From: the human T2T-CHM13v2.0 reference genome, Homo sapiens
Strand: one strand, 5' to 3'
Assembly (NCBI RefSeq): GCF_009914755.1
Contig: NC_060928.1
Length of the DNA stretch: 64,000 nucleotides
The position numbers and the translations under genes were made by a program. The notes under the pieces are model-generated. The model made no database searches. It saw nothing but the letters and a program-made list of their open reading frames with translations, and had not been told where the DNA came from. Shown here piece after piece: positions 28,551 through 32,102 of this stretch (its first letter is position 1; each line of letters opens with the position of its first letter).

Positions 28551-28712
28551 TACAATTGGTGCTTTATCCCCTGATTATAAACATAAACAACTTTGAAAAA
28601 GATTGGCAATTTCTATTTTAAATGCTCGTCAGGAGTTTTTCAAAAGTACCTCTGGGTTTCTAATATAAGTTGTCACGGATAATAAATCAAAGTGGGACAA
28701 AGAAACATCTTA

Positions 28713-28943
<231 letters not shown>

Positions 28944-31658
28944 TCACAGATAGAGGAACAAGGCCTAGCTAGGTCAGTTCACAGAGCATAGGGCAGGGCA
29001 GGATGGCCTCCAACTGCATCTTGGATTGTTTACTACCTTGATTTGGTACATCAACACCTAACCACATCTGTAAGACAAGAGGGTTTCAAAGCTACAGAGT
29101 ACCTGATTATTTTAACTAGATCTAAAAGTAGGCATCAAAACAGCTATTCTGAAGGCCATCAGGATACTAAAAAGCTCAACTTATTTAAAAAAACCAGTGC
29201 TGATAGCTCTACCAATAACCAGAATAACGGTGTCAATTGCCTTTTAGCTAACTGTAATTTTTCAAAAGGGCATCCACTAAATCTACTGAATGGCTGTGAA
29301 AGTTAGGAAGCTATGCTTGCCCACTGCAGAGCTAACAACAACTTTGAAACCAGTCTACTGCCATGTTTCTATCAGAATTTTTTCCCTAATACTGTGGCTA
29401 TTACCAACTGGTGGGTATCACTATTAGCACCGGTGAGCAGAAGCATATGTAAACATAAAAATATCAAGAATTCTTGGGTTTGGATGATAGCAGTAGTGGT
29501 GGAAGGTTAAACCGCCTTTGAATTAAGAAAATTCAAAAAGGCTGGGATATTCAGCCTAGTGTTTCAGCATTTTAACAAAAGGATTAGAAAATAAAGTCCC
29601 AAATTTAAAAAAGAAAAAAAACAAACTTATTTGAATCAAAACCTCAATATAAAAGCAAAGTCCAATATTTCAAAAGTTGACAATTAGTCTGAAACAATCA
29701 TATCAAGGGTCATCAAGATATGTAACTACAGTTATTTGTTTAGAGCCTCAATATTAATTCACATAAAACTTTAAATTGTTACAAAGCATGTACTACATTT
29801 TTTGAAATACAACTTTCCTTAATTCAGTTTAGCAATTCCATAGTCATAAAAGCAGTATGAAAATAAAAATACTTAACAGCTTGGGACTTTTTCAACACAT
29901 TTTAAAAGCTCTTAAAACCTTGTCAATGAAAAAATTCATAAATTATCGGTTCGGATAGAAGATAATGGGAATAATCAACAACAAGATAAAATACAGTATC
30001 ATATTACTCTTTCCCATACAGTTTCCCCTTTAAAAAGATGCCAAAATAGCCAAATAGTGACAACAAAACATGATCATAATAAATATTAAAACTCTTGCTT
30101 AATTTAATTGAAGCAAGGTAATTCATAAAAGCACACAAACTTCTCACAGCTGTGAATTTTAATGTGAACTAGCCACTAGAGTTAAGTGGGAATAAATAAG
30201 TAGTGCTCTCAAAGGCCTCTAGATTTGCACTGTTAGTATCAGGACCTCAAAACTTCAAAAACTATTTTAATGTCAAACAAAGCATTACAAGCTCAGCAAA
30301 CTATTTTTTATTCCCTGACTTCTTACTTGCCTCTTATTTCAACACTTTTCCTATAAATGGACCATTTAAAAACAGTCCATTTACATTGCTGCACATAAAT
30401 GCTCATTCTCCTGACAAACTAAAGGTTTTTATTTGTGATAAATAAAAATAAGTTTTTTTTAATTACAAATAAAACTGAGATGTAGTTGGAAGATTACAAC
30501 TACATCACAACAACAAACTTCTTAAAGAGCTAATATTCTAAACTCAAACAACAGTAATCATGTAAGTATATCTGATAAGAGAACCTAGAGAAATAAAAAC
30601 TAGGCAGATAGACAAGTAAGTACACAATCCATTAGTTCTTGCCCCACACTTTCTCTAAAAACTAAAATCTTGGGAGAAGTACAACTGGGAGAATCTATAA
30701 AACAACATATAAGAAAGGCAGACAACAACCTACCACCACCTCCGCAAATGAAGCTACAATTTAATTAAAGTGACTCAATACTGCCCTGCCCATCTGCTCT
30801 GAGTCTGATCAGTCATAACTCTGCAAGAAAACATTTTAGCTACTTCTTAAATAAAAAATTCACACCATTAGAATATACCATACGTCTAAACTAAGCCATA
30901 ATTTTACATTTAAATTTTTTTCAATTTATCCTTTAATTCCACAGAATATTTTGAAATATTTGCAGCATTAAGTTCAATAAACCACTCAGCAATAGGGAGT
31001 CAGTTCTCTCCCGTGCTAAAACTAGTAGCAGAGAATATTTTAATCGTCAGTAAGAACTTATTTTCTATTTTTAGCTGTAAGAATAGCTATTCATTTGTTT
31101 CTTAACAATATTTCTTCTCCTTTAGGGAAAATCTAATTTCCAAGTTACTATTCATTTGTGGATTACATTTTATTGTTACTAAAAACAGCATTATTTCCTT
31201 AGCTTAATGGTCCAATTTTACAAAATTAGCGATTTTATATATTAGGTATGTTTCTTTTACCAAGTTTTTCTACCATTGTAAAAGAATACCATTATCAGAT
31301 TAGATTTTAAGCCTAAAATTATACATTACTATTTCTATTTACTTGATATGAAGTTTGAAATTCATGTTTGTTCGGGTGCCATTGGAGTACATATATAGAA
31401 AAGGCTCAACTTAATGTATAGCTTTCAGTTTGTCACAGGCACACTTAATAGAGCTAAGTACTAGAGCAAAGTTCTTCCTGTACTTGCAGTAAAAAACAAA
31501 AAACAAAAAAACCACAAAGATAGCAGTGATGGACCTTTAACCAAAGAATTCAGTTACAACTGTGCTCAAACTTACTGCAATTTTTATTAGCACTCAAGAG
31601 AGCCAATGCTTTACTTATCTTTTGTGCACAATGACTTACTTTACTTTTGTAAGCACTA

Positions 31659-32102
<444 letters not shown>

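What the first reader, a model, noticed from the sequence alone, without database searches (positions are those of the whole stretch)
29490..30745. Second long-range helix nested inside the first
Seen: in the pre-mRNA, 30727-30745 (5'-GCGGAGGUGGUGGUAGGUU-3') pairs with 29490-29508 (5'-AACCUUCCACCACUACUGC-3') at 17 of 19 positions. Two of the pairs are G-U; the mismatches are one A-A and one U-U. Its 5' arm is ~35 nt from the 5' arm of the first helix and the nesting has no pseudoknot. It would loop out ~1.2 kb of U-rich spacer. Inference: two independent, compatible helices make chance less likely and suggest a multi-branch architecture.
Basis: partly seen in the sequence, partly recalled or inferred. 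Interest (0 to 1): 0.7.

Follow-up and report, generated by a model that had tools for sequence, protein, structure and literature searches.

The report
Long-range intron helix in DHX15
Two stretches 1.2 kb apart in intron 10 of human DHX15 can pair into a strong RNA helix, but equally strong pairings arise often enough in ordinary human DNA that, without cross-species evidence, it is most likely fortuitous.

Summary
On the DHX15 pre-mRNA, 30745-30727 pairs with 29508-29490 at 17 of 19 positions, with 2 G-U pairs and A-A and U-U mismatches.

The helix is longer than reported. One more G-U pair and an 8-bp inner stem (30721-30714 with 29519-29512) bring it to 26 bp and -39.5 kcal/mol. That makes it the second most stable long-range duplex of the 2934-nt intron, nested inside a -47.1 kcal/mol helix. 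Both sit in the predicted minimum-energy fold, with core pair probabilities of 0.87-1.0.

"17 of 19" is not rare in itself. The real intron has 145 such windows, and shuffles average 101. By energy the helix is in the top ~4% of shuffles: 28/687, 2/50 and 2/51. No shuffle out of 101 gives two such helices.

In real neighbouring human sequence, duplexes at least this stable are common: 38 of 60 chunks, or 28 of 55 counting single-copy arms only. At matched low GC the figure is 3 of 17.

I found no repeat, no extended inverted homology and no Rfam family. Orthologues could not be obtained, so conservation is untested.

Verdict: a real, foldable complementarity that is probably fortuitous (~55%). 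A selected intron-compacting helper of helix 1 remains possible (~27%).

The parts
30727..30745 (-). 5' arm of helix 2, core as reported (GCGGAGGUGGUGGUAGGUU)
   Evidence: Pair probabilities are 0.87-1.0 for its 17 pairs in the whole-intron ensemble.
29490..29508 (-). 3' arm of helix 2, core as reported (AACCUUCCACCACUACUGC)
   Evidence: It is unpaired in the local fold of 29545-29480, so it is accessible.
30714..30726 (-). Inner extension of the 5' arm: G30726 (G-U pair), a 4-nt loop side at 30725-30722, then CUGCCUUU at 30721-30714
   Evidence: Duplexfold with flanks gives -39.5 kcal/mol. The stem 30721-30715 / 29518-29512 is in the minimum-energy fold with mean probability 0.89.
29509..29519 (-). 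Inner extension of the 3' arm: U29509, a 2-nt loop side, then AAAGGCGG at 29519-29512
   Evidence: This stretch competes with a local hairpin at 29545-29512 (-11 kcal/mol, z -2.5).
29521..30712 (-). Spacer looped out by helix 2 (1192 nt, 41% U); holds no annotated exon
   Evidence: for length and composition; the hub's gene table for exons.
30762..30809 (-). 5' arm of the outer 'first' helix (context); core 30801-30781
   Evidence: Duplex of -47.1 kcal/mol. 18 bp are in the minimum-energy fold at probability 0.99-1.0. Net gain is 12.0 kcal/mol.
28973..29016 (-). 3' arm of the outer helix (context); core 29001-28982. It lies inside the alternative exon extension 28889-29067.
   Evidence: The extension reads into a stop after 5 codons.
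29017..29488 (-). 472-nt domain between the two 3' arms: the third branch of the junction. It contains the alternative 3' splice site at 29067/29068.
   Evidence: local duplexes of -36.5 and -34.3 kcal/mol inside it; the hub's table for the alternative exon.

Best explanation
Helix 2 is a genuine, thermodynamically competent long-range complementarity in DHX15 intron 10. A G/U-rich patch (30745-30714) matches a C/A-rich patch (29519-29490) at 26 bp and -39.5 kcal/mol. It most likely arose fortuitously and is not maintained by selection for pairing.

Shown: if the naked intron equilibrated, the helix would form. It would beat the two arms' own small local hairpins by about 10 kcal/mol, loop out about 1.2 kb, and sit inside the stronger helix 1.

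Inferred: in the cell the arms first fold locally, because the 3' arm is made about 1.2 kb later. Whether the long-range helix then forms depends on hnRNP coating and helicases. Its effect on splicing of this constitutive intron is small or nil.
For: - 17-of-19 windows are abundant: 145 in the real intron against a mean of 101.5 in 687 shuffles.
- By energy the helix is only a ~4% event per 2.9-kb sequence: 28/687, 2/50, 2/51. A shuffled 5' arm window finds a partner at -39.5 or lower somewhere downstream in 14 of 300 trials.
- The window holds about 15 such stretches of DHX15 pre-mRNA, so roughly 0.6 such helices are expected by chance.
- Real human sequence does as well. 11 of 19 neighbouring chunks and 38 of 60 chunks from the next gene region have a duplex at -39.5 or lower. 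Counting single-copy arms only, the figure is 28 of 55.
- Nested disjoint pairs both at -39.5 or lower occur in 12 of 79 chunks.
- Five equally strong duplexes in unrelated real sequence have net gains of 13.4, 10.7, 5.4, 0.0 and 3.6 kcal/mol, and 4 of 5 are in their minimum-energy fold. Helix 2's net gain of 9.7 and probability of ~0.99 are therefore not special.
- The 5' arm window pairs promiscuously: -41.1 with 29040-28963.
- At the DNA level the Watson-Crick core is 13 nt with E=0.93.
- Helix 2 encloses no annotated exon or splice site, and its arms lie 1077 nt from the 5' splice site and 601 nt from the 3' splice site.
- Published catalogues of such pairings report false-discovery rates from 10% to over 50%, even when both arms are conserved (Kalmykova et al. 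2021, PMC8052449; passages read).
Against: - For its GC content (32%) the intron is an outlier. Regression on 59 real chunks predicts a best duplex of -32.9 (sd 3.5) and a second-best of -31.1 (sd 2.9). The observed values are -47.1 (z -4.0) and -39.5 (z -2.9), and 0 of 59 chunks are as extreme.
- Among chunks with GC <=0.37, only 3 of 17 have a best duplex at -39.5 or lower, 0 of 17 at -47.1 or lower, and 1 of 17 a second-best at -39.5 or lower.
- No shuffle out of 101 gives a second-best at -39.5 or lower.
- None of the 17 real chunks with two disjoint strong duplexes has GC below 0.38.
- A shuffled 5' arm window paired against the real 3' arm window never reaches -39.5 (0 of 300; mean -18.8).
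- The duplex is 10 kcal/mol stronger on the transcribed strand than on the antisense strand (-39.5 against -29.7). Ascertainment favours this result, however.
- The two 5' arms are only 15 nt apart.
- The core of the 3' arm is locally unpaired.
Confidence: 0.55

Rival explanations
1. Helix 2 is a selected helper within a two-helix intron-compaction system.

Its 3' arm is transcribed about 470 nt before the 3' arm of helix 1. Once it pairs, it holds the helix-1 5' arm (15 nt upstream) next to the emerging 3' region. Helix 1 then closes a loop of about 490 nt instead of about 1750 nt.

Together the helices would shorten the effective intron from 2.9 kb to about 1.1 kb. They would also loop out or occlude the region around the strong-looking alternative 3' splice site at 29067. 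Use of that site gives a stop after 5 codons, so the helices would favour the productive 3' splice site at 28889.
For: - The two helices are the top two long-range duplexes of the intron.
- Both are in the minimum-energy fold at probability 0.9-1.0.
- Both are outliers for GC and in shuffles (0 of 101 for the pair).
- The arms are single copy in the genome, and there is no inverted-duplication signal.
- The helix-1 3' arm lies inside the alternative exon extension, which is closed by a stop codon.
- Nested long-range helices, and obstruction of cryptic splice sites, are documented for this class (PMC8052449; passages read).
- The nascent 5' arm is held only by weak hairpins.
Against: - No conservation or covariation data could be obtained.
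- No experimental contact data were available.
- Helix 2 itself touches no splice signal.
- Comparable nested pairs occur in 12 of 79 real chunks.
- The loop-entropy and kinetic argument is inference; the nearest-neighbour model does not capture it.
- DHX15 does not appear in the readable supplements of the catalogue papers. The files that would list it could not be read.
Confidence: 0.27
2. The two patches exist for separate, non-pairing reasons and are complementary only as a by-product of their compositions. One is a GG-run-rich intronic element (GGAGGUGGUGGUAGG) that would bind G-run or GGA-binding proteins. The other is a C/U-rich tract (CCUUCCACCACUACUGCUAUCAUCC) that would bind poly(C) or pyrimidine-tract proteins, or serve as the branch-point and pyrimidine tract of a cryptic 3' splice site.
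For: - The arms are strongly skewed: G/U-rich against C/A-rich.
- The 5' arm window pairs with more than one C-rich region.
- The authors of the PCCR catalogue note that independently conserved binding sites on opposite strands appear as complementary pairs (PMC8052449 discussion).
- By eye, UUAAC followed by a pyrimidine-rich run and an AG lies at 29511-29473.
Against: - Shuffles that keep the local composition in 40-nt blocks reach -39.5 in only 2 of 51 cases.
- Shuffled 5' arm windows paired against the real 3' arm window reach it in 0 of 300. Composition alone therefore does not give this helix.
- No protein-binding data were examined, and the motif assignments are recalled, not tested.
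Confidence: 0.1
3. The arms are the decayed ends of an old inverted duplication or of a transposon with terminal inverted repeats.
For: The arms are mirrored and nested. Both helices have short-period cores: GGU GGU GG and GGGCA GGGCA.
Against: - Each 121-nt arm region matches only itself in the whole genome.
- No inverted similarity extends beyond the arms. Helix 2 has 13 nt with E=0.93 and helix 1 has 24 nt with E=0.007, in a 400 x 810 nt comparison.
- No tandem repeat was called at either arm.
- No flanking direct repeats are visible by eye.
Confidence: 0.04

Closest known systems
Pairs of conserved complementary regions (PCCRs), i.e. long-range intronic base pairings of human pre-mRNAs (Kalmykova et al. 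2021, Nat Commun 12:2300, PMC8052449; passages read)
   Same: Both arms lie in one intron of a protein-coding gene, 1.2 kb apart (their limit is 10 kb). The arms are longer than 10 nt and nearly perfectly paired with short internal loops. The energy falls in their most stable group (-30 kcal/mol or lower). The arms are not repeats.
   Different: PCCRs require both arms to lie in conserved intronic regions. That, and covariation, could not be tested here. The BED files that would list this locus were too large to read.
[quoted passage not shown]
   Same: A nested pair of long-range helices in one pre-mRNA.
   Different: Those helices enclose a regulated exon and overlap an RBP site. Helix 2 encloses no annotated exon and no known binding site. 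Only the outer helix lies near an alternative 3' splice site.
Competing long-range structures controlling ATE1 mutually exclusive exons (PMC7797038; seen only as a search listing and abstract start)
   Same: Long-range intronic helices whose arms have alternative partners. Here the helix-2 5' arm window can also pair with the helix-1 3' region at -41.1.
   Different: The ATE1 elements are conserved and were validated by mutation. Nothing here has been validated, and no mutually exclusive exons are involved.
Inverted Alu pairs forming intronic double-stranded RNA
   Same: Intramolecular long-range duplexes in the same gene. The window holds several, at -68 to -105 kcal/mol.
   Different: Those arms are multi-copy repeats with duplexes of about 50 bp or more in my 50-nt windows. 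The arms of helix 2 are single copy and give only 26 interrupted bp.

Membership tests
PCCR / conserved long-range intronic RNA structure (Kalmykova et al. 2021) | Both arms intronic, in the same gene, 10 kb or less apart | tested here: met
   Both arms lie in intron 10 (28889-31822), 1192-1218 nt apart.
PCCR / conserved long-range intronic RNA structure (Kalmykova et al. 2021) | At least 10 nt, hybridisation energy -15 kcal/mol or lower, helices of 5 bp or more with only short loops | tested here: met
   26 bp in stems of 4, 8, 6 and 8 bp. Energy is -39.5 kcal/mol by RNAduplex. Their PrePH program itself was not run.
PCCR / conserved long-range intronic RNA structure (Kalmykova et al. 2021) | Both arms inside conserved intronic regions (phastCons elements) | not testable with these tools
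   No vertebrate genomes are held. Scans for orthologous loci gave only bacterial helicases or nothing. The PCCR BED files were unreadable.
PCCR / conserved long-range intronic RNA structure (Kalmykova et al. 2021) | Compensatory substitutions (R-scape) | not testable with these tools
   No orthologous sequences were obtainable.
PCCR / conserved long-range intronic RNA structure (Kalmykova et al. 2021) | Arms not in repeats | tested here: met
   Each 121-nt arm region has only its own match in the 3.1-Gb genome, and no tandem repeat is called. Old diverged repeats could escape this search.
Exon loop-out / RNA bridge | The helix encloses, or abuts within about 50 nt, a regulated exon or splice site | tested here: not met
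   The helix 2 loop (29521-30712) holds no annotated exon. The arms lie 1077 nt from the 5' splice site and 601 nt from the 3' splice site, and 422 nt from the alternative 3' splice site at 29067 (hub table).
Inverted-repeat (Alu-type) dsRNA or transposon terminal inverted repeats | Arms are copies of one repeat family in opposite orientation, with similarity extending beyond the paired core | tested here: not met
   (single copy). (no extended inverted similarity; Watson-Crick core of 13 nt, E=0.93).
Any Rfam family | Match to a covariance model | tested here: not met
   0 matches at E <=1 in 28700-32100 on both strands.

The most novel reading that the evidence does not exclude
Helices 1 and 2 form a co-transcriptional zipper in the pre-mRNA of DHX15, itself a spliceosomal helicase. 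Helix 2 forms first and nucleates helix 1. Together they hide the strong alternative 3' splice site at 29067, whose use ends the reading frame after 5 codons. The balance between productive and unproductive DHX15 mRNA would then depend on RNA folding kinetics or on helicase activity acting on these helices.
Probability: 0.07. Interest if true: 0.6.

Novelty: new member of a known kind. Interest (0 to 1): 0.27.

Why it matters
If the helix were selected, DHX15 would join the small set of human genes in which nested long-range intronic helices shape splice-site choice. It would do so in a gene that itself polices splice-site use, and near a 3' splice site that yields a truncated reading frame.

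As the evidence stands, the case is mainly a calibration. A 26-bp, -39.5 kcal/mol single-copy helix with predicted probability ~0.99 looks impressive against shuffled sequence. It is nonetheless matched by ordinary neighbouring human DNA. Energy and fold probability alone therefore cannot establish function for findings of this type.

Tried and rejected
- **Orthologues.** I looked for vertebrate contigs carrying DHX15 exon 10, hoping to read the adjoining intron, in the prokaryote genome collection and the viral collection. The first gave 3 planctomycete helicase loci at 46-54% identity; the second gave none. Conservation is therefore untested.
- **Published catalogues.** DHX15 is absent from the readable supplements of PMC8052449 (5 files), PMC10691357 (1 file) and PMC4174434 (1 of 2 files searched). 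The PCCR BED files are too large to read, and PMC10573301 has no readable supplement. These unseen files could list this helix.
- **Literature searches.** I searched 'DHX15 + long-range + RNA structure + intron', 'DHX15 / poison exon / unproductive splicing / intron retention / autoregulation' (none of the 15 papers listed holds DHX15) and 'DHX15 + intron 10'. The listings (titles, abstract starts, term counts) pointed to nothing about a structure in this intron; I opened none of the papers from these three searches.
- **Hard constraint.** A constraint meant to forbid only arm-to-arm pairs instead left both arms fully unpaired (first part; -657.6). I discarded that number and replaced it with a soft penalty.
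- **Repeat or inverted-duplication origin.** Rejected.
- **Rfam family.** None found.
- **High pair probability as evidence of design.** Rejected after the controls.
Full report
**Setting.** The window is human chr4 and DHX15 lies on the - strand. Both arms lie in the 2934-nt intron between exon 10 (31823-32014) and exon 11 (28766-28888). This is intron 10, at 28889-31822, running GTAATA...TTTAG with 32% GC.

**Observation.** On the - strand, 30745-30727 reads GCGGAGGTGGTGGTAGGTT and 29508-29490 reads AACCTTCCACCACTACTGC.
- They pair at 17 of 19 positions: 15 Watson-Crick pairs and 2 G-U pairs.
- The mismatches are A-A and U-U, exactly as reported.
- The duplex energy of the 19-mers is -25.3 kcal/mol.

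The helix is longer than reported.
- It continues with G30726-U29509.
- After a 4x2 internal loop, CUGCCUUU (30721-30714) pairs with AAAGGCGG (29519-29512).
- The total is 26 bp (14 G-C, 8 A-U, 4 G-U) at -39.5 kcal/mol.

These are the two most stable long-range duplexes of the intron; the third scores -36.5. The loop of helix 2 is 1192 nt and 41% U.

**Chance, by pair count.** A score of 17 of 19 is not unusual.
- The intron has 145 such windows.
- 687 dinucleotide shuffles average 101.5 (sd 21.6).

**Chance, by energy against shuffles.**
- The best 17/19 window reaches -25.3 or lower in 28 of 687 shuffles.
- With a seed-and-extend RNAduplex pipeline applied identically to real and null sequences, 50 dinucleotide shuffles give a best duplex of -33.4 (sd 2.5). 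Of these, 2 of 50 reach -39.5, 0 of 50 reach -47.1, and in 0 of 50 does the second-best reach -39.5.
- 51 shuffles confined to 40-nt blocks, which keep the local G-rich and C-rich patches, give 2/51, 0/51 and 0/51 (run, read).
- Shuffling only the 50-nt window around the 5' arm, a partner at -39.5 or lower appears somewhere downstream in 14 of 300 trials. For the 3' arm the figure is 2 of 300. Against the real 3' arm window it is 0 of 300.

Helix 2 alone is therefore roughly a 1-in-25 event per intron-sized sequence. The window contains about 15 such stretches of DHX15 pre-mRNA.

**Chance, against real sequence.**
- Of 19 neighbouring 2934-nt chunks on the same strand, 11 have a duplex at -39.5 or lower. 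Most of these involve Alu-like arms. The single-copy cases are two in chunk 2483 and one at 51697-51651 / 49952-49905.
- Of 60 chunks taken from the neighbouring gene region of the same chromosome, 38 have a duplex at -39.5 or lower and 13 have one at -47.1 or lower.
- Keeping only duplexes whose arms are single copy in the 264-kb pool, the counts are 28 of 55 and 6 of 55. The second-best reaches -39.5 in 19 of 54.
- Nested, disjoint, single-copy pairs both at -39.5 or lower occur in 12 of 79 chunks. In 2 of 79 the stronger member is at -47.1 or lower.

Energy tracks GC at about -1 kcal/mol per 1% GC, and this intron is GC-poor.
- A regression over the 59 of 79 chunks with at least two single-copy duplexes predicts -32.9 (sd 3.5) for the best and -31.1 (sd 2.9) for the second-best at 32.45% GC.
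- The observed values lie at z -4.0 and z -2.9, and 0 of 59 chunks are as extreme.
- At GC <=0.37, 3 of 17 chunks have a best duplex at -39.5 or lower, 0 of 17 at -47.1 or lower, and 1 of 17 a second-best at -39.5 or lower.
- All 17 chunks with two disjoint strong duplexes have GC >=0.38.

In absolute terms such helices are ordinary in human DNA. For an intron this AT-rich, the pair is unusual.

**Folding in context.** In the whole-intron fold the minimum energy is -696.9 kcal/mol.
- All 17 core pairs are present, with probabilities of 0.87-1.0.
- The four stems of helix 2 average 0.89-0.99, and helix 1 averages 0.99-1.0.
- 40 pairs spanning more than 1 kb have probability above 0.9. The only minimum-energy stems of that span with mean probability of 0.89 or more belong to these two helices.
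- Penalising arm-to-arm pairs gives -687.2, a net gain of 9.7 kcal/mol for helix 2. Each arm then folds into its own hairpin.
- The net gain for helix 1 is 12.0 kcal/mol.
- Before the 3' arm is transcribed, the 5' arm sits in two weak hairpins. Its local fold is -10 kcal/mol with z -0.3.
- The core of the 3' arm is locally unpaired. Its inner extension competes with a hairpin at 29545-29512 (-11 kcal/mol, z -2.5).

These properties are not special.
- Five equally strong duplexes (-39.5 to -43.0) in unrelated real chunks have net gains of 13.4, 10.7, 5.4, 0.0 and 3.6 kcal/mol. Four of the five are in their own minimum-energy fold.
- Two weaker best duplexes (-36.1 and -33.3) have zero net gain.

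**Origin.**
- Each arm region is single copy in the genome.
- No inverted similarity extends beyond the arms. At the Watson-Crick level helix 2 is 13 nt with E=0.93, and helix 1 is 24 nt with E=0.007.
- No tandem repeat is called at either arm.
- GGTGGTGG occurs 4 times in the window against 0.96 expected.
- No Rfam family matches at E <=1.
- The sense-strand duplex is 10 kcal/mol more stable than the antisense one (-39.5 against -29.7). The search itself favours that outcome.
- The 5' arm window can also pair with the helix-1 3' region (29040-28963) at -41.1. The two helices are therefore not fully independent.

**Context.**
- Helix 2 encloses no annotated exon and touches no splice signal.
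- The 3' arm of helix 1 lies inside the alternative exon extension 28889-29067. Read from exon 10, that extension reaches a stop after 5 codons.
- The alternative 3' splice site at 29067 lies between the two 3' arms. It is inside the loop of helix 1 and outside helix 2.
- A functional reading would make helix 2 a nucleating clamp for helix 1, which would favour the productive 3' splice site. This is inference only.

**What is known.** Long-range intronic pairings of this type are a described class, the PCCRs.
- The catalogue holds 916,360 of them, and the most stable group lies at -30 kcal/mol or lower.
- Nested cases are reported, as is obstruction of cryptic splice sites.
- The authors acknowledge false-discovery rates from 10% to over 50% (PMC8052449; passages read).

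Whether this locus is in that catalogue could not be checked, because the BED files are too large. The readable supplements do not mention DHX15. The listings of three literature searches pointed to nothing on a structure in DHX15 intron 10; I opened none of the papers they listed.

**Conservation.** The decisive test could not be run. No vertebrate genomes are held, and scans for contaminant orthologous contigs gave only bacterial helicases or nothing.

**Verdict.** My estimates are:
- about 55% that helix 2 is fortuitous complementarity that could still fold;
- about 27% that it is a selected helper of helix 1;
- about 10% that the arms are independent protein-binding patches that happen to be complementary;
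- about 4% that it is a relic of an inverted repeat.

If real, it is a new member of a known kind, and the interest is low to moderate.

Noticed in passing
window 30809-30762 and 29016-28973; alternative 3' splice site at 29067: The outer 'first' helix is stronger than helix 2: -47.1 kcal/mol, 18 bp in the minimum-energy fold at probability ~1.0, and a net gain of 12.0 kcal/mol. Its 3' arm lies inside the annotated alternative exon extension 28889-29067. That extension gives an in-frame stop after 5 codons. By eye, the alternative site has a good pyrimidine tract (CCCTCTTGTCTTACAG).
   Followed up: partly
window 30742-30728 (- strand): The 5' arm carries five GG runs (GGAGGUGGUGGUAGG). By eye this fits a two-tier G-quadruplex motif that would compete with the helix. 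It was not tested.
   Followed up: no
window 29511-29398 (- strand): By eye, the 3' arm resembles a cryptic 3' splice region: UUAAC, then a C/U-rich run, then an AG at 29474-29473. 68 nt downstream sits GTAATAG (29404-29398), the same 7-mer as this intron's own 5' splice site. This could be a cryptic stop-containing exon at 29472-29405 that helix 2 would mask. It is unscored and has no expression evidence.
   Followed up: no
window 51697-51651 and 49952-49905 (- strand): Another single-copy long-range duplex lies in the DHX15 pre-mRNA. It scores -41.0 kcal/mol, 37 of its 38 pairs are in the minimum-energy fold of its chunk, and its net gain is 13.4 kcal/mol. By these measures it is as good as the helix studied here.
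   Followed up: partly
window 29545-29512 (- strand): A local hairpin, built around the palindrome UUGAAUU-UUCUU-AAUUCAA, abuts the inner end of the 3' arm. It scores -11 kcal/mol with z -2.5, and 3 of 200 shuffles fold as well. It competes with the inner 8-bp extension of helix 2.
   Followed up: partly
window 31491-31510, 31748-31763, 29607-29625: Short (T)6G / (T)5G periodic tracts on the RNA strand (TRF) account for many of the weak 17-of-19 windows against purine-rich stretches.
   Followed up: no
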